A stretch of 64,000 nt of DNA, from positions 2,704,367-2,768,366 of the forward strand of contig NZ_CP186274.1 in assembly GCF_049331405.1 (NCBI RefSeq), read 5' to 3'. The notes under the pieces are model-generated. The model saw nothing but the letters and a program-made list of their open reading frames with translations. It searched no databases and was not told the origin of the DNA. The DNA comes from Singulisphaera sp. PoT (GTDB lineage Bacteria > Planctomycetota > Planctomycetia > Isosphaerales > Isosphaeraceae). Every line of letters begins with the position of its first letter. Within the stretch, counting starts at the first letter, position 1. The translations under genes were made by a program, and so were the position numbers. This document shows positions 231 to 49,909 of this stretch, piece after piece.

Positions 231-644
231 TTACCGCTCGTTAGAATTCAGAAGGTCTTCGGACTCGTCGCCCGGCAGGCTGGCGTCCTCAAGGCTCTCG
301 CACCCATCGCGGCCGTGGCAGCGGCTGATTCGCTCCATGTGCTCGTGGCCCCAGGTGCAGAGCGGGTCGAGGACTTCCTTGAGGGAGACGCCGAACTCGG
401 TGAGGGAATACTCCACCCTCGGCGGGATCTCGTGGAAGACCTCGCGGCGGATGATCCCGTCCGCCTCCATCTGCCGCAGTTGCTGGATGAGCATTTTCTC
501 CGTGATCCCGGTCGCCAGCCGCTTCAACTCGCCGAAACGGCGGGGTTGAGGCAGCAGGACCCACAAGATCACGACCTTCCACTTTCCACCGATGACGTCG
601 AAGGCCGCCTCGATGCCGCTGCTGTAGGCTCGCTTGGACTTCAT
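231..644 (-). CDS. HxlR-family winged-helix transcriptional regulator
   Basis: 137 aa; motif DVIGGKWKVVILWVLL…RFGELKRL…GITEKMLIQQLRQMEADGII is typical of HxlR/MarR-like HTH_5 proteins. It is transcribed divergently from the RND efflux genes. Confidence 0.8.
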   Translation of the reverse strand: MKSKRAYSSGIEAAFDVIGGKWKVVILWVLLPQPRRFGELKRLATGITEKMLIQQLRQMEADGIIRREVFHEIPPRVEYSLTEFGVSLKEVLDPLCTWGHEHMERISRCHGRDGCESLEDASLPGDESEDLLNSNER

Positions 645-1080
645 GGCAATTTGTTCATGGCTAACTTTTTGGTAAGCACCCTACTTTAAGGTAGGTACTT
701 TACCAAAGTAAAGAATCCCCTAGCATGCTTCCAGATTGAAATCGTCATGGGTATCGCGGTCGCCCGGGACGCAAATTTGTCCCGACGATCTCATGAGACG
801 TCCGCGAGTGGGATGTGCTCGCCCTGAGATGAGTCGATCCCGAAAAACCGAAAGGTTCCGTCTCACACCGTCCGAGCCCGCGCCAGCCCGAGAGATGTAG
901 TCCGGGTGCAGGCGACAGTCCGGGGTCGCCGCCCAACGCGGCCGGCCCTATTTCGATCCAACCTCGCGGAAAAAGGGCGATCGCATCGACCGCCCGGTCG
1001 TTCGCGATCCTCGAAGCCTTCGACGGCGGCGAGGACGTGCATCGTGCGCGCGAACTCAATGGCCGGGATGAACGGCCACC

Positions 1081-2445
1081 TTGGAATCAAGAGTGAGGTA
1101 TCCGACCTTGAAACGTGCTCAAGAAAAGACTTCGGTTCTGCTAGGAACGGCAGGTTTCTTCGTATTCCTCACGATCGCCGGCTGCGGGCAAGAGAACTCG
1201 TATGTCCCGCCGGAACCGCCCGAGGTCACGGTGAGCGCCCCCGTCCAGAGGTCCGTGACCAACTACCTCGAATACACGGGGACGACCAAGGCGCTCGAGA
1301 CCGTCGACCTCCGGGCCAGGGTCAAGGGGTTCCTCAAGGAGCGGCACTTCGACGAGCGGACACCGGTCAAGAAGGGGCAACTCCTCTTCGTGATCGACGA
1401 GGAGCCGTTCCAGGTGAGCCTCGCCATGGCGAAGGCCCGCCTGACCGAGGCCGAGGCCGCCCTCAAGCGCGCCGAGCAGTCGAAGGCCAAGGAGGTCGCC
1501 GCCGCCCAGTATGACCTCGACCAGGCCTCGCTCGTGCTCGCCCGCCTCGACGAGCGGCGCAACAAGAACCTGCTCGATCGCAACGCGGGGACCCGCGAGG
1601 CCCTCGACCAGTCGGAGGCGTCCCTGCGCAAGGCCGAGGCCCAGGTGAAGGCGGACAAGGCGAGCCTCGACCAGGCCATCGCCGACTACCAGACCAACAT
1701 CCTCTCGGCCAAGGGGACCGTCGATGCCGCGCGGTCCGAGGTGCGGAACGCCGAGATCAACCTCGGCTATTGCCGGATCACCGCCCCCTACGACGGCCGG
1801 ATCTCGCGCCGGTATTACGACGTGGGCAACCTCGTCGGCGACGGCCAGGCCACCGTGCTGGCGACGATCTACCGCGACGATCATATCTACGCCTACATCA
1901 ACATGAGCGAGAGCGACCTCCTCCGGTTCCGCCAGATGGTCCGAGAAGGCCGGCGTAAGGACCTCGAGCACGGCGACCAGATCCCCGTCGACCTGGGCCT
2001 GGCCAACGAGGTCGGGTTCCCGCACAAGGGGACGATCGACTACTCCGACCCGGCCGTCGACCCGGCGAGCGGCACCGTCCTCTCGCGAGGGCTCTTCATC
2101 AATAAGGACCGGCAGATCGTGCCCGGCCTGTTCGCGAGGATCCGCGTCGCGCTCGAGGAGCGGCCCAATGCCCTGCTCGTCCCCGAGAAGGCCCTCGGCA
2201 CCGATCAGGAGGGGCGGTTCCTGATGATCGTAGGGGACAAGGACGTCGTCGAGAAGCGCAAGGTCCGCGTCGGCGCCCTCGAGGGGAACTACCGGGTCAT
2301 CGAGGAGAACCTCAAGTCGGGCGAGCTCGTCATCGTCAACGGCCTCCAGAAGGCCAGGCCGGAGTCGAAGGTGAAGCCGAAGAAGCAGGAGCAGGGCGAC
2401 CAGGCCATCGCCACCGCGTCCGTCGGCAAATCCCCCCAACAATAA
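1081..2445 (+). CDS. RND efflux periplasmic adaptor (membrane-fusion protein, HlyD/AcrA family), lipoprotein signal (…LTIAGC)
   Basis: 454 aa; N-terminal lipobox; coiled-coil hairpin region (EAEAALKRAEQSKAKE…); beta-barrel/MP domains (RITAPYDGRISRR, VLATIYRDDHIYAY); lies directly upstream of the RND permease. Confidence 0.85.
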   Translation: MESRVRYPTLKRAQEKTSVLLGTAGFFVFLTIAGCGQENSYVPPEPPEVTVSAPVQRSVTNYLEYTGTTKALETVDLRARVKGFLKERHFDERTPVKKGQLLFVIDEEPFQVSLAMAKARLTEAEAALKRAEQSKAKEVAAAQYDLDQASLVLARLDERRNKNLLDRNAGTREALDQSEASLRKAEAQVKADKASLDQAIADYQTNILSAKGTVDAARSEVRNAEINLGYCRITAPYDGRISRRYYDVGNLVGDGQATVLATIYRDDHIYAYINMSESDLLRFRQMVREGRRKDLEHGDQIPVDLGLANEVGFPHKGTIDYSDPAVDPASGTVLSRGLFINKDRQIVPGLFARIRVALEERPNALLVPEKALGTDQEGRFLMIVGDKDVVEKRKVRVGALEGNYRVIEENLKSGELVIVNGLQKARPESKVKPKKQEQGDQAIATASVGKSPQQ

Positions 2446-20673: not shown

Positions 20674-21948
20674 TCAGGCCGTCGTGGCCGTGAGCTCGTT
20701 GGCTTCGACCCCGACCAGGGCCTCGAACTCGTCGAGCGACGGCTTGATGACGACCGGCTTGGCGATCTTGCCCAGCAAGGCCTCCTGCGTCTTCAGGCCG
20801 TTGCCCGTGATGCAGAGGACGGTCGAGCCGTCGCGATCGATCTTGCCCTGGGCGATCAACTTCTGGGCAACCGCGACGGTCACGCCGCCGGCGGTCTCGG
20901 CCCAGATCCCTTCGGTCTCGGCCAGCAGTCGCATCGCGGAGACGATCGCGTCGTCGTCCACGTCCTCGCTCCAGCCGCCCGTGTCTCGGATCAGCTTGGA
21001 GGCGAAGTAGCCGTCGGCGGGATCGCCGATGGCGAGGCTCTTGGCGATCGTGTTCGGGTTCCGGACCGGCTTGACCTTCAGGGCGTCGGTCTTGACCGTG
21101 TTCGAGATCGGGTTGCAGCCGGTGGCCTGGGCACCGTACATCTTGGTGTTGACGGGCCCTTCGATCAGGCCGAGGAGCTCCAGCTCCTTGAACGACTTGT
21201 GCAGCTTGCCGATCAGGCTGCCGCCGGCCATCGGGGCGACGACGTGGTCGGGGATCTTCCAGCCGAGGTCTTCGGCAATCTCGAAGCCCATCGACTTCGA
21301 ACCTTCGGCGTAGAAGGGGCGGAGGTTGACGTTCACGAAGCCCCAGCCGAACCGGAAGGCGATCTGCGAGCAGAGCCGGTTGACGTGGTCGTAGTTCCCC
21401 TCGATGGCGATGACCTTCGCGCCATAGATGGTCGCCCCCAGCACCTTGCCCTGCTCGAGGCCGTCGGGGATCAGGACGTAGGCCTTCAGGCCGGCCGCGG
21501 CGGCGTTGGCCGCCACGCTGCCGGCGAGGTTGCCGGTCGAGGCGCAACCGACCGTCTCGAACCCGAGCTCGACCGCCTTGGACAGCGCCACGGCGACGAC
21601 ACGATCCTTGAACGAGAGCGACGGGTGGCTGACGGCGTCATTCTTGACGTAGAGCTCGCGGACGCCCAGCGCCTCGGCGAGGCGGTCCGCCTTGATCAAG
21701 GGGGTGCAGCCGACGTGCTTGCCGACGGTCGGCTCGCCGTCAAGCGGCAGGAGCTCGCGATACCGCCACATCGTCCGGGGTCGGGCTTCGATCGCCTTGC
21801 GGGTGAAGGATCTGGCGACCGCCTCGTAGTCGTATGCGACTTCGAGAGGGCCGAAGTCCTCCGTGCAGAAGTTCAACGCTTCTTTGGGGTACAACTTGCC
21901 GCAGAGGCGACACTTCAAGCCTTGGACGAGATCTCCAGACACCGGCAA
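20674..21948 (-). CDS. Threonine-synthase-family fold-II PLP enzyme with an N-terminal zinc ribbon. Context suggests a homocysteine synthase that uses a protein thiocarboxylate (MetM-like) rather than a housekeeping ThrC.
   Basis: N-terminus has LKCRLCGKLYP…C; the PLP lysine region SLSFKDRV is present. It is the first gene after the SAM-I riboswitch. TTG/GTG start. Confidence 0.85.
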   Translation of the reverse strand: MPVSGDLVQGLKCRLCGKLYPKEALNFCTEDFGPLEVAYDYEAVARSFTRKAIEARPRTMWRYRELLPLDGEPTVGKHVGCTPLIKADRLAEALGVRELYVKNDAVSHPSLSFKDRVVAVALSKAVELGFETVGCASTGNLAGSVAANAAAAGLKAYVLIPDGLEQGKVLGATIYGAKVIAIEGNYDHVNRLCSQIAFRFGWGFVNVNLRPFYAEGSKSMGFEIAEDLGWKIPDHVVAPMAGGSLIGKLHKSFKELELLGLIEGPVNTKMYGAQATGCNPISNTVKTDALKVKPVRNPNTIAKSLAIGDPADGYFASKLIRDTGGWSEDVDDDAIVSAMRLLAETEGIWAETAGGVTVAVAQKLIAQGKIDRDGSTVLCITGNGLKTQEALLGKIAKPVVIKPSLDEFEALVGVEANELTATTA

Positions 21949-22139: not shown

Positions 22140-22276
22140 ATCTTATCTATCCCATCGGCACATCGAGCGTTTCAGCGTCGATGCACTGGGCAGGAGTTAG
22201 CACCAGCATTCACCCGATGGTGAACCGGTTGCTGTGGCGTCGCAGGGCCCGTCCCTCAGCCACTCTGGATAAGATG
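22140..22276 (-). ncRNA. SAM-I (S-box) riboswitch in the leader of the thrC-like/moaD-like/moeB-like/csd operon
   Basis: The minus-strand read TCTTATCCAGAGTGGCTGAGGGACGGGCCCTGCGACGCCACAGCAACCGG…GGTGCTAACTCCTGC…GATAGATAAGA matches the S-box conserved blocks (CTTATCaAGAG.GG.GGAGGGAC.GGCCC..GA..CC..GCAACC / GGTGCTAA.TCCTGC / AGATaAG). Further downstream there is a large imperfect palindrome (expression platform) and then the TTG/GTG start at 21948. Confidence 0.7.
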
Positions 22277-26751: not shown

Positions 26752-27173
26752 CAACGATCACCTCGCCCGGAGTCCGAGAGGCTCGACATTTCGAATGGAG
26801 AGCCCACTTCCTCTTGGGCATCCTCTAATTTATCTTTTCGAGTTCTCGGCGGTTGAGCAACCCAGGATTGCCCGAACCACGACCATTGTCGATGCCTCGG
26901 GCATGAGAAATCCCCCCCTGCAATGGTCGGTTGCAAAAGCGTCGAGCGGCAGTTGACTTCCCCAAGCCTCCATCGGATAGTGGATGCATTGGGTCATCGA
27001 GAAAGAGCTTCCGTGCTGCGATCGCGAGGCTTTTGATGCCGCTTTGGGGCTCGCATCGGCGGTAGCACTCCGCTCGGCGCAAGACGCGGCCCATGAGCGA
27101 GTCAGTCACCGTTCATTGGTTCAAGCCAACACATCACATGACGGCGATTTCACCCTCCAGGGAGATACCGGCG

Positions 27174-28022
27174 ATGCCGACGTTGCCCCAATCGATGGTC
27201 CTTGGGAGCGGACGGGCGAAGGCGTGGATCCTGTTCGTGGTGGGGGTCCTGTTCACCCTGTCCCTGATGCCGGCACCGGCCGCCCGGGCGCAAGAGCCCG
27301 CCAAGGACGAGGCGGCGAAGGCCGCCGCTGCGCCCGCCCCCGCCGCGGCGGGGAGCACAAGCGACGTCGCCCCCCCCAAGACCAAGTCGATGCTCCGCTG
27401 GGCGCTCGAGGCGTCGGGCCCCATCGGCGTCTTCCTGCTCTGCCTCTCGGTCTACTTCACCTCGGTCGTCATCAAGCTCTTCCTGGAGATGCGGGTGAGC
27501 GAGAACGTCCCGCCTGCGCTCGTCGAGAAGATGGAGGCGGCGATCCGCGACCGCAAGTTCCAGGAGCTCTACGACGCCTGCCGCGACAACGAATCGTTCC
27601 TGGCCAAGGTCGTCCGCACGGGCGTCGCCAACCTGCCCAACGGCCGCCCCGAGGCCAAGGAAGCCATGAACGCCGTGACCGACGAGATCGTCACCGGCAT
27701 GGAATCCAAGATCAGCTACCTCGCCATCATCGGGCAGCTCGGGCCGATGATCGGGCTGGTCGGCACGATCTGGGGCATGATCATGAGCTTCCAGGAAATC
27801 GCCACCGCCGCCGGCTCTCAGCCCAAGCCCGAGAAGGTGGCCGAGGGGATCTCGACGGCCCTCTTCATCACGCTCGAAGGGGTGGCCCTGGCCGTCCCGG
27901 CGATCTTCTTCTTCTCCTTCTTCCGGAACCGGATCGCGACGATCGCCATGGAGGTCACCAAGGTGGCCGACCGCACGATCGCCTCGCTGGTCCAGGCCGC
28001 CAAGCAGTCCAAGACCGTCTGA
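27174..28022 (+). CDS. MotA/TolQ/ExbB-family proton channel (cassette 1)
   Basis: Hallmark region GPMIGLVGTIWGMIMSF…EGISTALFITLEGVALAVPAIFFFSFFRNRI. The start is taken at an internal Met; the ORF extends to 27093. Confidence 0.9.
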   Translation: MPTLPQSMVLGSGRAKAWILFVVGVLFTLSLMPAPAARAQEPAKDEAAKAAAAPAPAAAGSTSDVAPPKTKSMLRWALEASGPIGVFLLCLSVYFTSVVIKLFLEMRVSENVPPALVEKMEAAIRDRKFQELYDACRDNESFLAKVVRTGVANLPNGRPEAKEAMNAVTDEIVTGMESKISYLAIIGQLGPMIGLVGTIWGMIMSFQEIATAAGSQPKPEKVAEGISTALFITLEGVALAVPAIFFFSFFRNRIATIAMEVTKVADRTIASLVQAAKQSKTV

Positions 28023-29200: not shown

Positions 29201-30097
29201 ATGAGCCAGTCGAACACGTTCTTCCGCGGGTCGGAGTTCCCGAGGCTCCTCGTCCTGCTCGCGATCCTCGTCGGCGGCTCGGCCCTGCTCTACGCCTACC
29301 TCTACGACCGCGACAAGGGGATCGACGGCGGCCCCGTGGCCACCGTCCCCCTCACGCCGATCGTGCCGGACAGGTCGACCGAGTTCGAGACGGTCGAGGA
29401 TAAGACCTCGATCGGCCTCCGCGACATGGCGGCCTACAAGAAGCTCCTGCAGCAGGCCGAGAAGCGCACGCCGGTCGAGCTCGACAAGGAGAGCCGACGC
29501 GACGTCCTCTCGATCCAGATCTGGGAGCATCCCAACAGCTACCGAGGCGTGCCCATCCACATCCTCGGCACCGTCCTCCGCGTCATGACCTACGAGAGCA
29601 AGCTCGTCCCCTCGGGCCGCCTGTACGAGGCCTGGATGGTGACCTCCGACAGCCAGCGCAACTTCTATGTCTGCGTCTTCGAGGACGCGCCGAAAGGGTT
29701 CCCGGTCGGCGACAACATCTCGGAGCGGGTGGTCTTCAACGGCTACTTCCTCAAGCTGATGAAGTACCAGTCGGGCAAGGACCTGGGCTACTACTCCTCG
29801 CCCGTCCTGATCGGCCGGATCGGCTGGAACGCCCCCACCAAGGCTCCCGCCGACAAAACGCCCGGCCCGGTGAAGTGGATGGCCGTCGCCGTGGCCCTGA
29901 TGTTCGTCCTCTCATTCTTCCGCTGGCTAGGGGGCCTGCGCAAGTCCTTCGCCCCGAGGTCGATCGCTTCGACCCTCCGCGAGCGCCCCACCGAAGAGAT
30001 CTCGCCCGAGGACCTCGCCGCCTGGGTCCAGAGCGTCCCGCAAGAGGAAGCCGAGATCGGCGAGGACGAGCCGCCTCGCCACGACGGCAAGGCCTGA
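29201..30097 (+). CDS. Conserved two-TM protein of unknown function that terminates the ExbB/ExbD cassette (paralog of 42464..43180)
   Basis: N-terminal TM (LLVLLAILVGGSALLYAYLY), periplasmic beta-rich domain with motif YEAWMVTSDSQRNFYVCVFED…FNGYFLKLMKYQSG, and a C-terminal TM. Confidence 0.7.
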   Translation: MSQSNTFFRGSEFPRLLVLLAILVGGSALLYAYLYDRDKGIDGGPVATVPLTPIVPDRSTEFETVEDKTSIGLRDMAAYKKLLQQAEKRTPVELDKESRRDVLSIQIWEHPNSYRGVPIHILGTVLRVMTYESKLVPSGRLYEAWMVTSDSQRNFYVCVFEDAPKGFPVGDNISERVVFNGYFLKLMKYQSGKDLGYYSSPVLIGRIGWNAPTKAPADKTPGPVKWMAVAVALMFVLSFFRWLGGLRKSFAPRSIASTLRERPTEEISPEDLAAWVQSVPQEEAEIGEDEPPRHDGKA

Positions 30098-30363
30098 TCG
30101 CCCGGCTTCCGCCCATCGAACCGCAAGCATTCCTTCCTGCATCGAACTTCGATCGACCGTAGACAGCTCGTTCGCGTCCCACAAATAACACACATGTCGA
30201 ACAAAAATATCATCAATTCTATCCATAAAGTCATAATTCTTTACGAACCGAAGTATTCAGCGATCTCCGGTATGACTTGGTCGCGCACTCCCTTCAAAGT
30301 CTGTGGATTTAATCCCAAGGATCGAATGCGAGGGTTTGGAAAAGCGGGGCGTTTCGCGGAGGC

Positions 30364-30392
30364 TTGACAGTGCGAGTGATCGGCCTTATGGT
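30364..30392 (+). promoter_or_regulatory. Sigma70-like promoter: TTGACA - 17 nt - TATGGT, ~55 nt upstream of the ATPase-SPFH start
   Basis: Read directly. A ~150-bp AT-rich block (30180..30330) lies just upstream. Confidence 0.5.
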
Positions 30393-30448
30393 CGAGTTTT
30401 CTTTGTCTCGCCCGCCGCGAACGATTCCCACCGCCTGGGGCTAACGGG

Positions 30449-33400
30449 ATGCACCGCGAATATCATCCCGCCGACATGCACCGACTGCGTGCGCACGCCT
30501 TCGAGGGAGAAGGCGGAGGGGAACCCGGCCGTCGCGAGGATCATCGGGGCCTCTATGCCCTGACGACCATCCTGGGGTTGCTGATCGGCGGGGACATCCT
30601 CTTCGCGTACCTCGGCCTGGAGTCCTGGAGGGCCCCGGCGGGCATCTCGCTGGTCAAGGCCGCCGCGATCCTGGGGGGGATCCGCATCGTCTACGGGGCC
30701 CTTGAGGCCCTCGCCCAGAAGCGCATCGGCGCCGATCTCGCGCTGGCCCAGGCGTGCATCGCCGCGTTGGTGATCGGCCAGCCGTTCGTCGCCGCCGAGG
30801 TCGTCTTCATCGCGTTGGTGGGGGAGGTCCTTGAGGCCCTCACCTTCGAGCGGACCCAACGCGCGATCCATCGCCTGCTCGATCAGGCCCCGCGCACGGC
30901 TCGAATACGCCGCGACGGCCGGGAGCACGAGATCGAGGCCCGGTATGTCGCCGAGGGGGACACGGTCATCGTCCGGCCCGGCGAGCGGATCCCGGTGGAC
31001 GGGCCGGTCCTCGTCGGGCGATCCTCCGTGGACCAGGCGGCGCTCACGGGGGAGTCGCACCCGGTCGACAAGGGGGTCGGAGACCCGGCCTTCTCGGGCA
31101 CGATCAACCAGTTCGGCGTCCTGGAGATCCGGGCGGAGAAGGTCGGCCACGAAACGACCCTGGGCCAGGTGTTGCGCCTGGTAGCCGAGGCGCAGCAGCG
31201 CAAGGCTCCGATCCAGAAGACGGCCGACCGGCTCGCCGGCTACTTCCTCCCGGTCGTCGAGAGTGTCGCCGCCCTGACGCTAATTTTCGGGTACCTCCTG
31301 CGCTGGCCCGACGTCTGGATGAGGACGGTCGCCGTGCTGGTGGTGGCCTGCCCGTGTGCCCTGGTCCTGGCCACGCCGGCCGCCATCCTCGCGAGCATGG
31401 CCTGGCTGGCGCGGCATGGCATCCTCATCAAGGGGGGCGAGGCGCTCGAACGGCTGGCCGCCTGCGACACGTTCGCGTTCGACAAGACCGGCACCCTGAC
31501 ACTGGGCCGGCCCGAGGTCACGAGCCTCGTCCCGCTCGACGGCTGGACCGAGGCCGAGATCCTGACCCTCGCCGCGATCGCCGAGTCGTCGAACCCGCAT
31601 CCGCTGGCCGTGGCGATCGTCGAGGAAGCCCGTCGGCGCGGCCTGAAACCGGGGACCGCCACCGAGGTCCTCGCCCAGCCCGGGGCGGGGGTCTCGTCCC
31701 GCTGCCAGCTCGACGCCGGGGGCTCGATCGCGGTCCTCGTGGGCAATCAGCGGCTCTTGAATGAACATGCGATCGAGATTTCAAACGAGGCGGCCGACGC
31801 CCTCCAGGCCCTCGACGCCCGCGGCGATACACCGCTTTTGGTCGCGGTCGAGGGGAAGCTCGCGGGCATCCTCGGGGCGCGCGACCGGATCCGCCCCGAG
31901 GCCCAGGGGGTCGTCTCCGAGCTGAAAGCCCTGGGCTTCCGCGAGGTCGCCATCCTGACCGGCGACCGCGCCGCGGCGGCCGAGGTCGTCGCCAGGAAGA
32001 CGCAGGCCACGAGCGTCGAGGCGGGCCTGCTCCCCGCCGACAAGGCGCACTGGGTCCAGGAACGTCAATCGGCCGGCAAGCGCGTGGCGATGGTCGGGGA
32101 TGGGATCAACGACGCCCCGGCGCTCGCGGGGGCCCACGTCGGGATCGCCCTCGGCGGGATCGGGGCCGACCTCGCGGCCGAGGCCGGCGACTTCGTCGTG
32201 CTCGGCGAACCCCTGGCCTGGCTCCCGGAACTCGTGCAGCTCTCGCGATCGACGGTCGCCGTCATCCGCCAGAACATCCTCATCTTTGCATTCACATTGA
32301 ACGCTGTTGCGATGGGGCTGGCCGCCCTGGGGATCCTGGGGCCGGTGCCGGCGGCGATCCTGCACCAGGCGGGGTCGCTGCTCGTCCTGCTGAACGCCAT
32401 GAGGCTCCTGGCGTTCGGGGAATGGAGACGACTCAGGCCCTTCCATCGGATCAACTCGCTCCTCGAATGGATGGCAAGGATCGACGACCGCCTCGATCCG
32501 ACGGATTACCTGGGTCGCCTGCTCTCGCACTGGCGAGGTTTCGTCGCCCTGATGGTTGCAGTGCTAATCGCCCTGGGCCTGACCTCGGGCTGGACGGCCA
32601 TAGGCCCTGGCGAGGTGGGGCTCGTCCAGCGGCAGGGGCGTTACTTGCGGGCGCTGGAGCCGGGACTCCACCTGCGCTGGCCCCCGCCGTTCGAGCGCGT
32701 GGTCCGGCTCCGGCCCGATCGGCTGAGGAGCCTCGAACTCGGCTTCCGCTCGAACGAAGGAGGCGACTCGGGGCCGGTGCGGTGGGAGTCGCGGCACGAC
32801 CGAGGCGCCGTCGCCCGAGCCGAGGACGAGTCCCTCCTGCTCACGGGCGATGGCCAGCTCGTCGAGCTCGCCGCGACGGCGCAGTACCGGCTCGATACAT
32901 CAAAGCCCGAGTCGCTGCGATCCTACGCCTTCGCCATCGCCGAGCCCGACCGCGCATTGCGTCCTCTCGGCGAATCGGCGATCCGCGCGGTCGTGGGGCG
33001 TCTGACGCTCAACGATTTGCTGACCACGGGGCGACAATCCGCCGAGAAATCGGCCGTGAGCTTGCTCCAGGAGCGGGCGGATCGCTACGGCATGGGGCTG
33101 TTCATCGCGGGGGTCGAATTCCAGGATGTTCATCCCCCGCTGCCGGTGGTGGACGCCTACCGCGACGTCTCCCGGGCCGAGAGCGAACGGGCCAAGCGCG
33201 ACAACGACGGCAAGGCCTACGAGGCCAAGGTCGTCGCCGAGGCCCAAGGCCGTGCCGACGCACTCCGCAACCAGGCCCTCGCCGCGATGTCTTCGCGTGT
33301 GACCCGTGCAGACGCGGAGTCGAGCACCTTCCTCGACCTGCTCTCCGCTCGTTCGACGGCCCCCGCGCTGACCGACCTCCGGCTCTATTGGGAGCGGATC

Positions 33401-33553
33401 GAGGAGTCGCTCGCTGGCAAGTCGAAGGTCGTCACGGAGCCCGACTCCACCGGCCGACGGATCCGGATGATCCCCGACCTCCCCTTCGAGGGCCGGGCCC
33501 TCGCCCCCGAGCCTAATCCCACCCCCGACCCCTCGGCTCGGAGAACGCCATGA
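30449..33553 (+). CDS. P1B-type heavy-metal-translocating P-type ATPase fused in-frame to a C-terminal transmembrane helix plus SPFH/band-7 (HflK-like) domain
   Basis: ATPase motifs: TGES (actuator), CPC in TM6 (VACPCALVLATP), DKTGTLT, GDGINDAPAL, and a TM8 HQAGSLLVLLNAMRLL. After residue ~640 comes a new TM (FVALMVAVLIALGL) and an HflK-type SPFH domain (GPGEVGLVQRQGRYLRALEPGLHLRWPPPFERVV…). There is no N-terminal CxxC HMA domain; the N-terminus is His-rich. Confidence 0.85.
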   Translation: MHREYHPADMHRLRAHAFEGEGGGEPGRREDHRGLYALTTILGLLIGGDILFAYLGLESWRAPAGISLVKAAAILGGIRIVYGALEALAQKRIGADLALAQACIAALVIGQPFVAAEVVFIALVGEVLEALTFERTQRAIHRLLDQAPRTARIRRDGREHEIEARYVAEGDTVIVRPGERIPVDGPVLVGRSSVDQAALTGESHPVDKGVGDPAFSGTINQFGVLEIRAEKVGHETTLGQVLRLVAEAQQRKAPIQKTADRLAGYFLPVVESVAALTLIFGYLLRWPDVWMRTVAVLVVACPCALVLATPAAILASMAWLARHGILIKGGEALERLAACDTFAFDKTGTLTLGRPEVTSLVPLDGWTEAEILTLAAIAESSNPHPLAVAIVEEARRRGLKPGTATEVLAQPGAGVSSRCQLDAGGSIAVLVGNQRLLNEHAIEISNEAADALQALDARGDTPLLVAVEGKLAGILGARDRIRPEAQGVVSELKALGFREVAILTGDRAAAAEVVARKTQATSVEAGLLPADKAHWVQERQSAGKRVAMVGDGINDAPALAGAHVGIALGGIGADLAAEAGDFVVLGEPLAWLPELVQLSRSTVAVIRQNILIFAFTLNAVAMGLAALGILGPVPAAILHQAGSLLVLLNAMRLLAFGEWRRLRPFHRINSLLEWMARIDDRLDPTDYLGRLLSHWRGFVALMVAVLIALGLTSGWTAIGPGEVGLVQRQGRYLRALEPGLHLRWPPPFERVVRLRPDRLRSLELGFRSNEGGDSGPVRWESRHDRGAVARAEDESLLLTGDGQLVELAATAQYRLDTSKPESLRSYAFAIAEPDRALRPLGESAIRAVVGRLTLNDLLTTGRQSAEKSAVSLLQERADRYGMGLFIAGVEFQDVHPPLPVVDAYRDVSRAESERAKRDNDGKAYEAKVVAEAQGRADALRNQALAAMSSRVTRADAESSTFLDLLSARSTAPALTDLRLYWERIEESLAGKSKVVTEPDSTGRRIRMIPDLPFEGRALAPEPNPTPDPSARRTP

Positions 33554-33873
33554 ACGCGATCGCCCCGGCCATCCGCCTGCGATTCACCCTGGCCCAGTTG
33601 CTGTCCCTGGTCATCCTGAGCACCCTCTGCATGGCCCCGCTGATGGCCTCGCTCAAGTCGGGGAAGGGAATGCTCATCCTCGCGGCCGTCACGCTCGACG
33701 TCTTCATCGCCCCGATGATCGAGACGGTCATCGTGATGGCCTATGTCCGCTCGCCCGAGCGTCGCGATTGGATCGTCCGAGCAATCTGGGTGATCCCCGC
33801 GCTGTTCGTGGGGGCCTTCCTGACCGTCCTGGTTCCGATCCTGCTGTTCGTCAACGACCCGTTCTCGCGCTGA
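33550..33873 (+). CDS. Small polytopic membrane protein (107 aa), translationally coupled (ATGA) to the ATPase-SPFH gene
   Basis: Three predicted TM helices. Its start codon overlaps the upstream stop codon. Confidence 0.5.
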   Translation: MNAIAPAIRLRFTLAQLLSLVILSTLCMAPLMASLKSGKGMLILAAVTLDVFIAPMIETVIVMAYVRSPERRDWIVRAIWVIPALFVGAFLTVLVPILLFVNDPFSR

Positions 33874-33927
33874 GGTTTGCCTCGCGAGCCGCAACAGAAT
33901 CTGTCGAGCTTCCCCGAGACCTCCGCA

Positions 33928-34881
33928 ATGACACGCCCCTTCCGCTGGCTGACTGCCCTCATCGTGCTCGGCCTCGTCGCGCTCTTCGGTTTCCGAGGTT
34001 GGGTCATCGTCGACGAGACCGAGTACGCGGTGATCACCGACTTCGGCCGGATCGTGAAGGTCTACGGGGCGGAGCCGGGGTTGCACGCCAAATGGCCCTG
34101 GCAGTCGGTGGAGACCATCGACCGCCGACTCCAGGTGTTCGACCCGCCCCCTCGCGAGATGATCACGGGGGATAAGCGGAACCTCGAGGTCTCCAGCTAC
34201 GTCGTCTGGCGCGTGGCCGACGCCGTCCGCTTCCTACGCTCGGCGGCGACCCTCGAGACGGCGGAAGCCCGCCTCAACGAGCGGGTGACCGCCGCACTGA
34301 GTCATGCGGTAGGGAGCCGCGAACTCCGGACGCTCGCCTCCACCGATCCAAAGGTCTGGAAGCTCGACGCGATCACCGAGGAGGTCCGCACGAGCATCGC
34401 CCCGGGCGCCCGCGAGGAACTCGGGGTCGAGGTCGTCGACGTGAGGCTCCGTCGCTTCAACCATCCGACGGAAGTCCGGCCCGCGATCTTCGAGCTGATC
34501 AGGAGCGAGCGGAAGCAGGTCGCGGCGAGCCTCCGGGCCGAGGGCGAGGCCCGCTACCTCTCCCTCACGAGCCAGGCCGACCGCCAGCGCGACACCATCC
34601 TCGCCGAGGCCGAGGCGGAGGCCGAGCGGATCAGGGGCCAGGCCGAATCCGAGTCGACCCGGATCTACAACAAGGCCCACTCCCAGGACCCGAAGTTCTA
34701 CGAGTTCGTGCGGACGCTCGAGTCGTACCGGGCCTTACTCGACGAAAAGGCTACCGTCGTCCTCTCGTCCGCGAGTCCGCTGCTCCGGCTCCTGACTCAA
34801 GGGCCCTCCGAGGACCTACTCCGGGGTCCCGCCCGCGATAAGGCGGCGGTGACGCCCTCGCCGACTGAGACAAAGCCATGA
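33928..34881 (+). CDS. SPFH/band-7 protein, HflC-like
   Basis: N-terminal TM, then VIVDETEYAVITDFGRIVKVYGAEPGLHAKWPWQSVETIDRRLQVFD (HflC signature) and a coiled-coil tail. A TTG alternative start lies at 33877, directly after the upstream stop. Confidence 0.85.
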   Translation: MTRPFRWLTALIVLGLVALFGFRGWVIVDETEYAVITDFGRIVKVYGAEPGLHAKWPWQSVETIDRRLQVFDPPPREMITGDKRNLEVSSYVVWRVADAVRFLRSAATLETAEARLNERVTAALSHAVGSRELRTLASTDPKVWKLDAITEEVRTSIAPGAREELGVEVVDVRLRRFNHPTEVRPAIFELIRSERKQVAASLRAEGEARYLSLTSQADRQRDTILAEAEAEAERIRGQAESESTRIYNKAHSQDPKFYEFVRTLESYRALLDEKATVVLSSASPLLRLLTQGPSEDLLRGPARDKAAVTPSPTETKP

Positions 34882-35789
34882 GCCGGAACGTATTCCGCTG
34901 GCTCCTCGCGTCATTCGTCCTGGCGGCGATCGCCTACGGGCTGTCGGGGGTCGTCGTGGTCGCCCCCGGCGAGGTGGCCGTGGTCCGCAGGTTCGGCCGG
35001 GCGCTGGCGAGGCCCTTGCCGCCGGGTCCGCACTGGTTGCTCCCCGCGTGGATCGACCGGATCACGCGAGTCCGCACCGACACCGTGCGACGGCTCGAAG
35101 TCGGGCTCGTCGGCACGCCGGGGCCCGACGCCCTCGCCGACGACGGAGAATACATCACCGGCGACCTGAACATGCTGCGTGCGTCTGGCGTCGTGCAGTA
35201 CCGGGTATCCGACCCCATCGCGTTCACCCTCCGAGCCAAAGAGCTCGAACCGATCCTCACGCGGTTGATCGAATCGACCTTGAGCCGATCCCTGGCGCGA
35301 GTGTCCATCGACCTCGCGCTCCGGTCGGGCCGGGCCGAGATCGCCCGCGAGATGGAAGGGGAGCTCTCCCAGGCCGCCGCACGCTATGGCCTGGGGATCT
35401 CGATCCTGGGCGTGAGCCTCACCGAGGCCCGGCCCCCCGTCGAGGTCGCGCCCGACTTCGCCTCGGCCCAAGCCGCCCAGAGCGAACGCGACGGCCGGAT
35501 CCGCGAGGCCCAGACTTACGAGGCGACGGCTTTGACAGGTGCCAGGGCCTCGGCCCTGGCCACGAAGGAGAAGGCCAAATCACGGGCCGACCGCTCGCTC
35601 GCACTGGCGAAGGCCCGCGCAGCCCGTTTCGAGACGCTGCTGGCCGAGGCCTCGGGCTGGAGGCGATTGACGATCCGTCGGCTCTACCTCGACACCTTGC
35701 GAGAGCTCTGGCCGAAGGCCAAGCGCAAGATCATCACGAGCCCCGACGAGCCGGTCGACCTCAGCATCCTCGACGACACTCGTCAGTAA
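34878..35789 (+). CDS. SPFH/band-7 protein, HflK-like; start overlaps the HflC-like stop (ATGA)
   Basis: N-terminal TM, then VVAPGEVAVVRRFGRALARPLPPGPHWLLPAWIDRITRVRTD and a coiled-coil C-terminus. Confidence 0.85.
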   Translation: MSRNVFRWLLASFVLAAIAYGLSGVVVVAPGEVAVVRRFGRALARPLPPGPHWLLPAWIDRITRVRTDTVRRLEVGLVGTPGPDALADDGEYITGDLNMLRASGVVQYRVSDPIAFTLRAKELEPILTRLIESTLSRSLARVSIDLALRSGRAEIAREMEGELSQAAARYGLGISILGVSLTEARPPVEVAPDFASAQAAQSERDGRIREAQTYEATALTGARASALATKEKAKSRADRSLALAKARAARFETLLAEASGWRRLTIRRLYLDTLRELWPKAKRKIITSPDEPVDLSILDDTRQ

Positions 35790-35792
35790 GGC

Positions 35793-36617
35793 TCAGCGCC
35801 CGCCTCGAGGGCGCTGACCGCCCCCCGATGGACGCGACCGCGGCTGGGACGATCCCGACTCTTCCCAGGCATCGAGGTCGCACCAGGGGCCTCGGCTCCG
35901 GAACGTGGGTAGCGGGAGGCTGTTGGCGGCGTTGAGGGCCTCGGAGCGGGTGAGGCCGTCGCGACGGATCGCCGTGCCCCGGAAGATGCGGAGGCCCCGG
36001 CTGCGCGCCAGGATCTCGCGCCGGGAGCGGCCCTCGGGGGCGTCGGGCCAGGGGTCGGGATGTTCCGCAAACTCGAAGAAGACCGGGATGACCTTCTTGA
36101 TGAATTCCCAGTAGTCGGGGTTATCCGTCTGGATGACGAAGAGCCCGCCGGGCGCGAGGCCCCTGTGGAGGTCGGCGAGGAATTTCGGGGCGACCAGGCG
36201 CAGGTGGGCGCGGCGAGGGTCGTGGTAGGGTTGCGGGTGATAGAGGTGGGCCTCGGCCAGGCTCCCCTCGGGCACGTATTCGGAGACGAAGGACTGGCCG
36301 TCCCTGACGGCGAACCGGACGTGATGGAGGCCTCGCTGATTCCCGCGCCGGGTCGCGTAGCGGATCACGACGGGGAGCAGGTCGATGCCGATGTGGTCGC
36401 ACTCGGGGCGATTGAGGGCACTCAGGAGGGTATAGCGGCCGTTGCCGCAGCCGAGTTCGAGGACGACGGGGGCCTTCCTGCCGAAGATACCTTCCCAGTC
36501 GAGCGGGCCCGAGGGGGGCAGGTGCTTGATGGCCGTCCTGGCCCACTGGTCTTCGGGGAGGATCTGCCCGGGGATGGGGACGCCGAACTCCGTCTCGATT
36601 TCGCCGGGGACTGGCAT
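35793..36617 (-). CDS. trmB: tRNA (guanine46-N7)-methyltransferase
   Basis: SAM-binding motif VLELGCGNGRYTLLSA…HIGIDL and the conserved TrmB C-terminal half. Confidence 0.85.
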   Translation of the reverse strand: MPVPGEIETEFGVPIPGQILPEDQWARTAIKHLPPSGPLDWEGIFGRKAPVVLELGCGNGRYTLLSALNRPECDHIGIDLLPVVIRYATRRGNQRGLHHVRFAVRDGQSFVSEYVPEGSLAEAHLYHPQPYHDPRRAHLRLVAPKFLADLHRGLAPGGLFVIQTDNPDYWEFIKKVIPVFFEFAEHPDPWPDAPEGRSRREILARSRGLRIFRGTAIRRDGLTRSEALNAANSLPLPTFRSRGPWCDLDAWEESGSSQPRSRPSGGGQRPRGGR

Positions 36618-49237: not shown

Positions 49238-49909
49238 TCAGTGACCCGACTGCGGCGCGACGAGGACCTTGCCGGCGGCCTCGGCACCGAGGGCGACCGT
49301 GCGGTTCTCGAGCCGGATGACCAGCGCGCCGGACTCGGGCCGGTTCTCGGCGAGCTCTCCCGAGGCGTTCAGGTCGAGGCCGCACTCGGTCAGATACCGG
49401 AGAAAGGCGGGGTCCTGGTCGACGACCCGGACGACCCGGAAGGACTGCCCACGGGGGAGCTTGGCCAGGGGGGTCCCCTCGATCTCGGCGAGCGAGCCGT
49501 CCGCCGTGGGGATTGGGTCGCCGTGCGGGTCGACCGCCGGATGCCCGAGGAAAGCGTCGATCCGGTCGATCAGGCGCTCGGAGGCCGCATGCTCCATGTG
49601 CTCGGCCTCCTCGTGGACCTCATCCCAGGGCATGTCCAGCGTCTTGACCAGGAAGAGCTCCAGGAGGCGATGGCGGCGGATGACCTTCATCGCCAGGCGC
49701 TGGCCGGACTCGGTGAGGCGGGCCCCTTCATAGGGGGTGTATGTGGCGAGACTCGCCTCGGAGAGGGTCTTGAGCATCCCGGTCACGGTCCCGGGAGAGA
49801 CCCCCAAGGCGTGCGCGAGGACCCCCGTCGCCACCGCGGAATGCCCCCCGTCGCGGGCGGCGATCTGGGCGATGGCCTTCACGTAGTTCTCGACGGTCAA
49901 ACTCGCCAC
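49238..49909 (-). CDS. DtxR/MntR/IdeR-family metal-dependent repressor with a C-terminal FeoA/SH3-like domain
   Basis: HTH region LTVENYVKAIAQIA…VATGVLAHALGVSPGTVTGMLKTL; metal-site residues in the dimerisation domain; C-terminal SH3-like segment LAKLPRGQSFRVVRV. Confidence 0.85.
   Translation of the reverse strand: MASLTVENYVKAIAQIAARDGGHSAVATGVLAHALGVSPGTVTGMLKTLSEASLATYTPYEGARLTESGQRLAMKVIRRHRLLELFLVKTLDMPWDEVHEEAEHMEHAASERLIDRIDAFLGHPAVDPHGDPIPTADGSLAEIEGTPLAKLPRGQSFRVVRVVDQDPAFLRYLTECGLDLNASGELAENRPESGALVIRLENRTVALGAEAAGKVLVAPQSGH

What the first reader, a model, noticed from the sequence alone, without database searches (positions are those of the whole stretch)
30180..30392. AT-rich block and near-consensus sigma70 promoter upstream of the ATPase-SPFH operon
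A ~150-bp stretch (…CACAAATAACACACATGTCGAACAAAAATATCATCAATTCTATCCATAAAGTCATAATTCTTTACG…) has roughly 30-35% GC in a ~70% GC genome. It is followed by TTGACA-17-TATGGT. Such islands typically mark binding regions for nucleoid proteins or metal-sensing regulators, or the junction of horizontally acquired DNA. A DtxR-family repressor is encoded ~19 kb away, at 49238..49909.
Basis: seen in the sequence. Interest (0 to 1): 0.5.

Follow-up and report, generated by a model that had tools for sequence, protein, structure and literature searches.

The report
Conserved promoter behind a strain-specific AT-rich spacer
The TTGACA-17-TATGGT site is a genuine, evolutionarily conserved promoter of a metal-pump/membrane-scaffold operon in a Singulisphaera planctomycete, whereas the AT-rich block upstream of it is a strain-specific piece of fast-changing spacer DNA with no detectable regulator site, so the finding is real but mostly ordinary.

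Summary
Both observed features are real. The quoted string sits at 30180-30245. Its core, 30183-30242, has 25% GC and is the lowest 60-mer in a 66.3% GC window (about 6 SD below the mean). The 150-bp value is 40%, not 30-35%. TTGACA-17-TATGGT (30364-30392) is the only such site in the 64 kb.

The window is from Singulisphaera sp. PoT. In five diverged lineages GCTTGACA and CTTAnGGT are invariant, 17 bp apart, while the surrounding bases vary. This is a conserved sigma70-type promoter of the operon P1B-ATPase::SPFH, orf107, HflC-like, HflK-like.

The AT block is absent from every orthologous locus read. It matches nothing elsewhere. It shows no operator, RNA family, RNA structure or coding signal, and it ends about 105 bp upstream of the -35. 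In relatives this spacer is short or carries unrelated accessory genes, so it is an indel hot spot. The operon is ancestral at this locus and native in composition, so the block is not an HGT junction. No link to the DtxR gene was found.

The block is also the most G-poor stretch of the window (C/G about 3.5), directly after the upstream operon's stop codon. That fits a Rho-loading site, but this is inference only.

Interest is low.

The parts
29201..30097 (+). Last gene (298-aa hypothetical) of the upstream exbB-exbD-exbD-298aa gene string. Its stop codon is followed directly by the C-rich, G-poor spacer.
   Evidence: GC3 is 0.93. It is 100% identical to a Singulisphaera sp. PoT protein and has 530 homologues. 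Synteny was seen.
30098..30354 (.). Lineage-specific part of the intergenic spacer. It has no similarity to the orthologous spacers or to anything else searched.
   Evidence: blastn homology to L009 and L008 starts only at about 30355. There were no hits to any fetched locus or to the rest of the window, to phages or plasmids, or, for exact 24-mer and 20-mer strings, to JGI metagenome or viral contigs.
30180..30260 (.). AT-rich core, 25-30% GC. On the + strand it is A/C-rich and G-starved.
   Evidence: The 78-nt window 30167-30244 has C21 and G6, the fewest G (or C) of any 78-nt window on either strand.
30098..30300 (+). Candidate Rho-loading (rut-like) RNA segment: the untranslated 3' tail of the upstream operon's transcript. 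Inferred, not shown.
   Evidence: C64 versus G33. The first 120 nt after the stop have C/G 2.21, against 0.70-1.30 for 21 other 3' flanks. Five C residues are spaced 11-13 nt apart, and pause-consensus matches lie at 30319, 30347 and 30361. The RNA folds no better than shuffles, z -0.5. No intrinsic terminator follows the stop codon; the one hairpin-plus-T-run match, at 30380-30395, overlaps the -10.
30185..30213 (+). Weak promoter-like match ATAACA-17-TATCAT inside the AT block. It is probably a by-product of AT-richness.
   Evidence: 9 of 12 positions match. Its -10 lies downstream of the ORF57 ATG, and it is not conserved.
30194..30367 (+). 57-codon ORF across the AT block. Rejected as a gene.
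   Evidence: GC3 is 0.50, against 0.80-0.94 for the window's genes. Its codon-usage distance is 0.338. 326 of 1000 shuffles give an ORF at least as long. Only 3 weak hits were found among 1.84 billion proteins, all to a short repeat motif resembling DGxTWSRVP.
30362..30369 (+). -35 element, GCTTGACA (hexamer 30364-30369).
   Evidence: Invariant in 5 lineages. Hexamer match.
30385..30392 (+). -10 element, CTTATGGT (hexamer TATGGT at 30387-30392). The family consensus is TAnGGT.
   Evidence: C, T, T, A, G, G and T are invariant in 5 lineages, with all four bases at position 3; the spacer is always 17 bp.
30396..30448 (+). Predicted transcription start (about 30399, give or take 3) and a leader of about 50 nt.
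   Evidence: Inferred from the usual distance between a -10 element and the start site. The leader is not structured beyond shuffles, z -0.27, and has no Rfam match.
30449..33553 (+). P1B heavy-metal ATPase (CPC motif) fused to a C-terminal SPFH/HflK-like domain. First gene of the operon.
   Evidence: Pfam E1-E2_ATPase, Hydrolase and Band_7. TIGR01525 scores 562 bits and TIGR01933 (hflK) 160 bits. Sequence. The start MHREYHPADMH is conserved in 6 loci.
33550..33873 (+). 107-aa ORF. It overlaps the ATPase stop by 4 nt.
   Evidence: GC3 is 0.92. No family match.
33877..34881 (+). HflC-like SPFH protein.
   Evidence: TIGR01932 scores 184 bits. Band_7 match.
34878..35789 (+). HflK-like SPFH protein. 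Last gene of the operon; convergent with trmB (35793-36617, -).
   Evidence: TIGR01933 scores 148.5 bits, below its cut-off of 159.4. Band_7 match.

Best explanation
Two separable things lie here.

(1) 30362-30392 is the working promoter of the four-gene operon ATPase::SPFH, orf107, HflC-like, HflK-like. It is of the housekeeping-sigma (sigma70) type. RNA polymerase holoenzyme reads GCTTGACA (-35) and TAnGGT (-10) 17 bp apart, starts near 30399 and makes a leader of about 50 nt. Nothing else around the hexamers is conserved, so initiation is most likely constitutive rather than set by a metal-sensing repressor or a MerR-type activator.

(2) The AT-rich block 30180-30260 is not part of that conserved control region. 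It belongs to a 257-bp lineage-specific stretch of a spacer that turns over quickly. In relatives this spacer is 109-222 bp long, or holds unrelated accessory genes. The block is best read as a leftover of insertion/deletion traffic, probably foreign or non-templated DNA, with no sequence-specific operator.

The one activity its sequence predicts is at the RNA level. As the untranslated, unstructured, C>G, G-starved tail of the exbB-exbD-exbD-298aa transcript, it is a good Rho-loading site. It would stop read-through before the ATPase promoter.

Shown: the composition, the promoter conservation, the lack of conservation of the block, and the negative searches. Inferred: the transcription start, constitutive expression, origin by insertion, and Rho-dependent termination. 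My own estimates: promoter about 0.85; block is not a conserved regulatory element about 0.7; functional Rho site about 0.3.
For: Promoter:
- It matches 10 of 12 consensus positions, with 0.2 such sites expected in shuffles.
- TTGACA-N17-TANNNT is unique in 64 kb and absent from 100 shuffles.
- In the window, L009/L010, L008, L004 and L015 (ATPase 68-79% identical), GCTTGACA and CTTA-GGT are invariant at fixed spacing, while the spacer and flanks vary and mean column identity is 69%.
- The ATPase start is fixed by the conserved N-terminus.

Block is lineage-specific:
- No AT island lies upstream of the ATPase in L001-L005, L008, L009, L015, L016 or L017.
- Homology to relatives starts at about 30355.
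- No match was found anywhere.

Hot spot:
- The spacer is 174 bp in L008, 155 in L016, 222 in L017 and 109 in the P0127 contig.
- It is 930 bp in L009/L010, with a gene that weakly matches the Macro domain (below Pfam's cut-off), and about 1.8 kb in L015, with DUF4365 and another gene. The two 156-aa proteins show no similarity to each other.

No operator, gene or RNA:
-.

Rut-like features:
- C/G is 21:6 in 30167-30244, the most G-poor 78-mer of the window. Only 2 clusters on the + strand and 4 on the - strand reach C/G of 3 or more.
- The 3'-flank C/G of 2.21 is an outlier.
- The rut criteria are those in PMC6407284.
Against: - No relative lies between 79% and about 100% protein identity. 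An insertion therefore cannot be told apart from in-situ divergence, and the block's constraint cannot be measured: the L007 contig differs by only 20 SNPs in 5.8 kb, 2 of them in the spacer.
- The C>G property is not seen in orthologous spacers (C/G 0.80-1.25). If termination is needed there, relatives achieve it in another way.
- High C/G alone is a weak predictor. Other top C>G windows of this sequence lie inside genes or upstream of them.
- Whether this genome encodes Rho was not tested.
- No perfect-stem pause hairpin was found downstream.
- A 25% GC stretch in a 66% GC genome is extreme for neutral DNA, which leaves room for an unrecognised DNA-level function.
- The promoter is absent from the L016/L017 lineages and from the more distant L001-L003 and L005, so it is a subclade feature.
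- No transcript data exist.
Confidence: 0.55

Rival explanations
1. The AT-rich block is the operator region of a metal-sensing regulator (DtxR/MntR, Fur, Zur, CsoR, ArsR/SmtB or MerR type) that controls the ATPase promoter. The DtxR-family protein encoded at 49238-49909 would be one candidate.
For: The downstream gene is a CPC-type P1B heavy-metal ATPase, and such pumps are usually metal-regulated (established knowledge). Many metalloregulator boxes are AT-rich. A DtxR/MntR-like gene exists in the window.
Against: The best matches to 22 operator consensus sequences are at or below the shuffle level; the best case is 66 of 300 shuffles scoring as high. The only palindromes in the block are an 8-nt pair 35 nt apart and an 11-nt GGATTTAATCC at 30305-30315, both at chance level (read directly). 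The block ends about 105 bp upstream of the -35, where a repressor could not occlude polymerase. The spacer is 17 bp, not the 19-20 bp of MerR-type promoters. No AT block and no conserved box beyond the hexamers is found in orthologous promoters. The DtxR gene is 19 kb away, next to unrelated genes.
Confidence: 0.05
2. The block acts at the DNA level as a structural or nucleoid-protein site. It could be a target of a silencer that prefers AT-rich DNA (analogous to H-NS, Lsr2, MvaT or Rok) or of a bending protein. It could also be the site where negative supercoiling melts the duplex. Either way it would tune the strong promoter about 105-185 bp downstream, or suppress spurious initiation within the block.
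For: It is the most AT-rich 60-100 bp of the 64 kb, and so the least stable duplex. It contains a promoter-like 9 of 12 match that could need silencing. AT-rich islands in GC-rich genomes are the known targets of Lsr2- or H-NS-type proteins (established knowledge).
Against: No analogous island was seen in any orthologous locus, so the conserved promoter does not need it. No silencer of this kind is known to me in Planctomycetota, and none was looked for here. The other AT-poor islands of the window share no motif with the block. At 70-100 bp it is short for silencer nucleation.
Confidence: 0.15
3. The block marks the left junction of a horizontally acquired ATPase-SPFH island.
For: S. acidiphila has 291aa-217aa-trmB at this locus, without the ATPase, HflC or HflK genes. 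The operon therefore lies exactly between conserved flanks, and the AT block is at its left edge.
Against: The same gene order, with the operon between the 298-aa gene and trmB, occurs in L008, L009/L010, L015, L016, L017 and the P0127 contig. The operon is therefore ancestral to this clade, and loss in S. acidiphila is the simpler reading. Operon GC3 is 0.87-0.92, as in its neighbours, and the ATPase codon-usage distance of 0.073 is below the window median of 0.079. No tRNA gene, flanking direct repeat or recognised mobility gene lies at the edges. The conserved promoter lies between the block and the operon, and relatives that have the operon lack the block.
Confidence: 0.05
4. The block encodes something of its own. 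One option is the 57-aa ORF at 30194-30367. Another is a small RNA starting at the ATAACA-17-TATCAT site (about 30220) and ending at the hairpin plus T-run at 30380-30405.
For: An ATG-started ORF spans the block. The one SNP inside it in L007 (30253 G>A) is synonymous, AAG to AAA (frame read from the sequence). There are promoter-like and terminator-like matches on the + strand.
Against: The ORF's length is at chance level: 326 of 1000 shuffles do as well. It has no codon periodicity (GC1/2/3 = 0.40/0.45/0.50) and a negative coding score. No homologue was found among 1.84 billion representatives beyond a repeat-motif coincidence. The ORF's ATG lies upstream of the candidate -10. RNA folding is not better than shuffles on either strand, z -0.5 and -0.4. 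There is no Rfam match even at E up to 10. The hairpin plus T-run overlaps the conserved -10 and start region.
Confidence: 0.07

Closest known systems
Housekeeping-sigma (sigma70, group 1) -35/-10 promoters, in particular the TTGACN-17-TAnnnT form described for GC-rich bacteria such as Streptomyces and Mycobacterium (from my own knowledge)
   Same: A perfect TTGACA, the optimal 17-bp spacer, and a -10 that keeps T1, A2 and T6. It lies about 57 nt upstream of the start codon. Both hexamers are conserved across lineages while the spacer sequence drifts.
   Different: The -10 is TAnGGT, with GGT invariant instead of AAT. The bases G and C before the -35 and C and T before the -10 are also invariant. 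It is the only TTGACA-17-TAnnnT site in 64 kb, so it is atypically close to consensus for this genome. The start site has not been mapped.
Rho-utilisation (rut) sites of Rho-dependent terminators
   Same: At least 78 nt of C>G, G-poor, unstructured, untranslated RNA directly behind a stop codon, with C residues at 11-13-nt spacing and pause-consensus matches within 150 nt downstream (criteria from PMC6407284).
   Different: It is far more A/U-rich than a typical rut site: C is only 27% of the 78 nt. The property is absent from orthologous spacers. The presence of Rho and termination itself are untested.
AT-rich targets of xenogeneic silencers (H-NS, Lsr2, MvaT, Rok)
   Same: A sharply AT-rich island in a GC-rich genome, lineage-specific, and containing a promoter-like sequence.
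   Different: It is only about 70-100 bp and carries no gene. The flanking operon is native in composition. No such silencer is known to me for Planctomycetota, and none was tested.
Metal-responsive promoters of P1B ATPases (CueR/ZntR MerR-type, CsoR, CopY, ArsR/SmtB, and DtxR/MntR or Fur/Zur boxes)
   Same: It lies upstream of a CPC-type heavy-metal P-type ATPase.
   Different: The spacer is 17 bp, not 19-20 bp. No consensus box rises above chance. No conserved dyad lies around the promoter.
UP element (alpha-CTD site at -40 to -60)
   Same: AT-rich DNA upstream of a strong promoter.
   Different: The block lies at about -139 to -219. The -40 to -60 stretch (30339-30359, GAAAAGCGGGGCGTTTCGCGG) is 67% GC (read) and is not conserved.

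Membership tests
sigma70-type promoter | -35 hexamer close to TTGACA | tested here: met
   TTGACA, 6 of 6, at 30364-30369.
sigma70-type promoter | Spacer of 17 bp, give or take 1 | tested here: met
   17 bp in the window and in all 4 other lineages.
sigma70-type promoter | -10 hexamer with A at position 2 and T at position 6 | tested here: met
   TATGGT, 4 of 6. The form is TAnGGT in 5 lineages.
sigma70-type promoter | Positioned upstream of, and co-oriented with, a gene start | tested here: met
   The -10 ends 56 nt before the ATG at 30449, which is fixed by the conserved N-terminus.
sigma70-type promoter | Hexamers conserved more than their surroundings in orthologous regions | tested here: met
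   Invariant runs GCTTGACA and CTTA-GGT, against 69% mean column identity. Absent from L016/L017 and more distant loci.
sigma70-type promoter | Transcription start mapped 5-9 nt downstream of the -10 | not testable with these tools
   No transcript data are available.
Metalloregulator operator (DtxR/MntR, Fur/Zur/PerR, CsoR/RcnR, NikR, ArsR/SmtB, MerR-type) | Dyad-symmetric match to a family consensus above chance | tested here: not met
   For 22 consensus sequences, the best scores were reached by 66 to 300 of 300 shuffles.
Metalloregulator operator (DtxR/MntR, Fur/Zur/PerR, CsoR/RcnR, NikR, ArsR/SmtB, MerR-type) | Overlaps or abuts the -35/-10 elements, or sits in a 19-20-bp spacer for MerR-type regulators | tested here: not met
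   The block ends about 105 bp upstream of the -35, and the spacer is 17 bp.
Metalloregulator operator (DtxR/MntR, Fur/Zur/PerR, CsoR/RcnR, NikR, ArsR/SmtB, MerR-type) | Conserved in orthologous promoters, or linked to a regulator gene | tested here: not met
   No block or box in the orthologues. No regulator gene is adjacent. The DtxR gene is 19 kb away among unrelated genes.
Rho-dependent terminator (rut site) | At least 78 nt of C>G, G-poor RNA with regularly spaced C residues | tested here: met
   C21/G6 in 30167-30244, with a chain of 5 C residues at 11-13-nt spacing.
Rho-dependent terminator (rut site) | Untranslated and poorly structured | tested here: met
   It starts right after the stop codon at 30097. 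Folding z is -0.5. ORF57 was rejected as a gene.
Rho-dependent terminator (rut site) | Pause site within about 150 nt downstream | tested here: inconclusive
   Three matches to GGN8YG (30319, 30347, 30361), but no perfect-stem GC-rich hairpin.
Rho-dependent terminator (rut site) | Rho encoded in the genome; 3' ends that depend on Rho | not testable with these tools
   Only 64 kb of the genome is held, and there are no transcript data.
Genomic-island junction (HGT) | Flanked genes atypical in composition or codon usage | tested here: not met
   GC3 0.87-0.92. Codon-usage distance 0.073-0.126 for the long genes, within the native range of 0.049-0.126.
Genomic-island junction (HGT) | Island absent from close relatives at the same locus | tested here: not met
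   Present at the same locus in at least 6 related lineages; absent only in S. acidiphila.
Genomic-island junction (HGT) | tRNA target, integrase, or flanking direct repeats | tested here: not met
   No tRNA gene in the window. No significant repeats. No recognised mobility gene among the neighbours.
UP element | A/T-rich sequence at -40 to -60 | tested here: not met
   30339-30359 is 67% GC. The block lies at about -139 to -219.
Known RNA family (riboswitch, leader or sRNA) | Rfam covariance-model match, or a fold better than shuffles | tested here: not met
   No match at E up to 10 in 29900-30700. Folding z is -0.5, -0.4 and -0.27.

The most novel reading that the evidence does not exclude
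A short piece of foreign or non-templated AT-rich DNA, captured in an indel-prone spacer, has been put to use in this one Singulisphaera lineage as a new insulator. As RNA it would load Rho and end the exbBD-298aa transcript. As DNA it would be the easiest-melting site, or a nucleoid-protein site, about 105-185 bp upstream of an unusually consensus-like promoter, coupling that promoter to supercoiling. It would be a case of regulatory birth from junk DNA in a phylum where neither Rho terminators nor xenogeneic silencing have been described, to my knowledge.
Probability: 0.1. Interest if true: 0.4.

Novelty: new member of a known kind. Interest (0 to 1): 0.15.

Why it matters
The practical gain is modest. 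It gives a well-supported promoter (GCTTGACA-N17-TAnGGT) for a planctomycete, a phylum for which my two literature searches found no promoter study. The promoter could serve as a strong constitutive part for genetic tools in Isosphaeraceae, and as an anchor for mapping the regulation of the widespread but unstudied P1B-ATPase::SPFH-HflC-HflK operon. It also shows that this operon's promoter carries no conserved metal-regulator box, which argues against simple metal-inducible control. The AT-rich block itself matters mainly as a caution. A striking compositional island can be lineage-specific spacer debris, and comparison with orthologous loci is what separates it from the functional element next to it.

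Tried and rejected
- Rfam at gathering threshold over the whole window, and at E up to 10 on 29900-30700: nothing in the region.
- RNA folding of the spacer on both strands and of the leader: not better than shuffles.
- Repeat, tandem-repeat and tRNA scans: only chance-level short repeats and no tRNA gene.
- 22 metalloregulator consensus scans against 300 shuffles: none above chance.
- ORF57 as a gene: rejected on composition, chance-level length and lack of homologues.
- Similarity of the spacer to orthologous spacers, to the inserted cassettes of L009 and L015 (blastn, tblastx, tblastn), and to the rest of the window: none.
- Phage and plasmid collections in distant mode: only chance-size hits of 27-33 nt, or none.
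- Exact 24-mer in JGI metagenome contigs and 20-mer in viral contigs: none.
- A promoter-pattern scan of the metagenomes returned only two loci I already held.
- A shared motif among the window's other low-GC islands: none.
- Intrinsic terminators after the 298-aa gene in relatives: none convincing.
- A conserved C>G skew in orthologous spacers: absent.
- Literature searches for planctomycete promoter or transcription-start studies, ATPase-SPFH fusions, Rho in Planctomycetes, and strain PoT: nothing directly usable.
- The L007 comparison (20 SNPs in 5.8 kb) is too shallow to measure constraint.
Full report
**Origin and gene map**

The window is from Singulisphaera sp. PoT (Isosphaeraceae, Planctomycetota). 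The 298-aa protein of 29201-30097 and the 1034-aa protein of 30449-33553 are each 100% identical to proteins that NCBI names from that strain. Window GC is 66.3%.

The finding lies in the 351-bp intergenic region 30098-30448. On its left is the last gene of a co-directional string: exbB (27093-28022), exbD, exbD, and the 298-aa hypothetical gene. On its right is a tightly packed operon:
- a CPC-type P1B heavy-metal ATPase fused to a C-terminal SPFH/HflK-like domain (30449-33553);
- a 107-aa ORF (33550-33873);
- an HflC-like gene (33877-34881);
- an HflK-like gene (34878-35789).

The operon is convergent with trmB (35793-36617, minus strand).

The quoted string is at 30180-30245 and has 29% GC: A29 C15 G4 T18. 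The lowest-GC window of every size tested lies here:

| Window size | Position | GC |
|---|---|---|
| 60 nt | 30183-30242 | 25% |
| 80 nt | here | 30% |
| 100 nt | here | 35% |
| 150 nt | 30179-30328 | 40% |

- For 60-mers the mean is 66% and the SD 6.8%. The next-lowest 60-mer has 35% GC.
- The AT-rich core is therefore 70-100 bp, not 150 bp at 30-35%.
- Among 33 intergenic regions defined by a GC3-based gene map, this is the only one with a 60-mer below 35%.
- Against an intergenic background of 60% GC the binomial probability is 4e-8.
- TTGACA-17-TATGGT is at 30364-30392. The looser pattern TTGACA-N17-TANNNT occurs only there in the window and in none of 100 shuffles.
- An independent ENA metagenome contig (L007) carries the same spacer with two SNPs, so the block is not an assembly artefact.

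**The promoter is conserved**

I fetched orthologous loci in two ways: through the ATPase and through the upstream 298-aa protein. Five lineages carry the promoter: the window, L009/L010, L008, L004 and L015. Their ATPases are 68-79% identical to the window's. The alignment from -60 to the ATG shows two invariant runs, GCTTGACA and CTTA-GGT, always 17 bp apart. The spacer, the upstream flank and most of the leader differ, and mean column identity is 69%. All four bases occur at position 3 of the -10, so the family form is TAnGGT.

This footprint falls exactly on the two hexamers. It is strong comparative evidence for a housekeeping-sigma promoter. The inferred start is near 30399 and the leader is about 50 nt. 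The start codon at 30449 is fixed by the conserved N-terminus MHREYHPADMH.

No dyad or other conserved box accompanies the hexamers, and the 17-bp spacer is not of the MerR type. I therefore infer constitutive initiation. The promoter is not universal: L016/L017 and the more distant L001-L003 and L005 have different upstream sequences.

**The AT-rich block is lineage-specific**

- None of the orthologous loci has an AT island upstream of the ATPase.
- blastn homology between the window and L009 or L008 begins only at about 30355, just before the -35.
- The 263 bp from 30098 to 30360 match nothing in any fetched locus or in the rest of the window, by blastn or tblastx.
- They match nothing in 50,697 phage records or 72,556 plasmids beyond chance-size hits.
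- Core 24-mer and 20-mer strings are absent from JGI metagenome contigs and from viral contigs.

The spacer itself is highly variable:

| Locus | Spacer between the 298-aa gene and the ATPase |
|---|---|
| P0127 contig | 109 bp |
| L016 | 155 bp |
| L008 | 174 bp |
| L017 | 222 bp |
| Window | 351 bp |
| L009/L010 | 930 bp, with a minus-strand gene that weakly matches the Macro domain (below Pfam's cut-off) |
| L015 | about 1.8 kb, with a DUF4365 gene and another gene |

The 156-aa proteins of L009 and L015 show no similarity to each other, and the cassettes share no family match. The site upstream of the conserved promoter is therefore an insertion/deletion hot spot. The window's extra DNA is one more lineage-specific state of it.

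**The operon is not a recent acquisition**

The order exbB-exbD-exbD-298aa, then ATPase::SPFH ... HflC-HflK, then trmB recurs in at least six lineages. Only S. acidiphila lacks the ATPase, HflC and HflK genes there, which is most simply a loss. Operon GC3 (0.87-0.92) and codon usage lie within the native range. The window contains no tRNA gene, and no recognised mobility gene or repeat flanks the operon. The reading 'junction of horizontally acquired DNA' fails for the operon. It survives only in the small sense that the block may itself be a scrap of foreign DNA.

**What the block is not**

- No Rfam family matches, even at E up to 10.
- RNA folds of either strand are no better than shuffles, z -0.5 and -0.4.
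- There are no tandem or significant dispersed repeats.
- The 57-codon ORF 30194-30367 has GC1/2/3 of 0.40/0.45/0.50, against GC3 of 0.80-0.94 in real genes. Its coding score is negative. Its length is reached in 326 of 1000 shuffles. Among 1.84 billion proteins it has only three weak hits, all to a short repeat motif resembling DGxTWSRVP.
- The DtxR/MntR-like gene at 49238-49909 is real. It sits between a DUF1501 gene and a methyltransferase gene and shows no link to this locus.
- The block spans about -139 to -219 relative to the inferred start, outside UP-element range. The -40 to -60 stretch is 67% GC.
- The other low-GC islands of the window share no motif with it.

**What the block could do**

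Besides being AT-rich, it is strongly strand-asymmetric.
- 30167-30244 has 21 C and 6 G. That is the fewest G (or C) of any 78-nt window on either strand. Only 2 clusters on the + strand and 4 on the - strand reach C/G of 3 or more in 64 kb.
- The first 120 nt after the stop codon of the 298-aa gene have C/G 2.21. The other 21 3' flanks of the window have 0.70-1.30.
- The stretch is untranslated and unstructured. No intrinsic terminator follows the stop codon; the only hairpin-plus-T-run match, at 30380-30395, overlaps the -10.
- It has C residues at 11-13-nt spacing and three pause-consensus matches downstream.

These are the features used to recognise Rho-utilisation sites (PMC6407284). I therefore propose that, if the block does anything, it loads Rho on the upstream transcript and insulates the ATPase promoter from read-through.

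This is inference from composition only. Orthologous spacers lack the skew (C/G 0.80-1.25). The presence of Rho was not checked, and C/G ratio is a weak predictor. I give this about 0.3.

**Verdict**

The promoter interpretation is well supported. The metal-regulator, DtxR and island-junction ideas are not supported.

The thing of substance is an ordinary but nicely conserved sigma70-type promoter. The eye-catching AT block is most likely lineage-specific spacer debris, with at best an incidental terminator role.

Limits:
- no relative lies between 79% and about 100% identity, so origin and constraint of the block cannot be resolved;
- there are no transcript data;
- only 64 kb of the genome was available.

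Noticed in passing
window 30449-35789; loci L001-L005, L008-L010, L015-L017: The P1B ATPase carries a C-terminal SPFH/HflK-like domain. It has a CPC motif, a TM6 sequence 'HQAGS', no HMA domain, and a conserved His-rich start MHREYHPADMH. All 120 listed homologues (56-100% identity) have the same three Pfam domains, and those that carry a source name are Isosphaeraceae or Isosphaerales. In the six related loci read past the ATPase, it is followed by HflC-like and HflK-like genes. A full-text search found no paper on such a fusion. This looks more interesting than the AT block.
   Followed up: partly
L011 5873-6526 (S. acidiphila) versus window 33550-33873: S. acidiphila lacks the ATPase, HflC and HflK genes at this locus. 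It keeps a 217-aa ORF that is weakly similar (tblastn E 0.002, 26% identity over 114 aa) to the window's 107-aa ORF. Relatives have ORFs of 204-206 aa at that position. This hints at stepwise loss of the operon.
   Followed up: no
window 22140-22275 (-): A SAM riboswitch (RF00162, 77 bits) lies upstream of the minus-strand gene 20674-21948.
   Followed up: no
window 657-716: The second-lowest GC island (35%) lies between divergent genes 231-644 (-) and 1081-2445 (+). By eye it appears to contain an extended, imperfect palindrome, within GGTAAGCACCCTACTTTAAGGTAGGTACTTTACCAAAG. It looks like a repressor operator.
   Followed up: no
L009 6008-6478 (-); L015 1354-2307 (-): Unrelated accessory genes sit in the same spacer upstream of the conserved ATPase promoter in two relatives. 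L009 has a 156-aa gene with a weak Macro-domain match. L015 has a DUF4365 gene plus an unknown 156-aa gene. This makes the spacer a recurrent insertion site.
   Followed up: partly
window 30364-30392 versus the whole window: Only one TTGACA-N17-TAnnnT site exists in 64 kb holding about 45 genes. Typical promoters of this genome must therefore deviate from the E. coli consensus, or use other -35 forms. The -10 of this promoter family keeps an invariant GGT.
   Followed up: partly
window 30253 and 30193 versus L007: Both spacer SNPs between strain PoT and the metagenome contig fall in or at the edge of the AT block. L007 carries T or A where the window has C or G, so it is even more AT-rich there. 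Two SNPs are too few to interpret.
   Followed up: no
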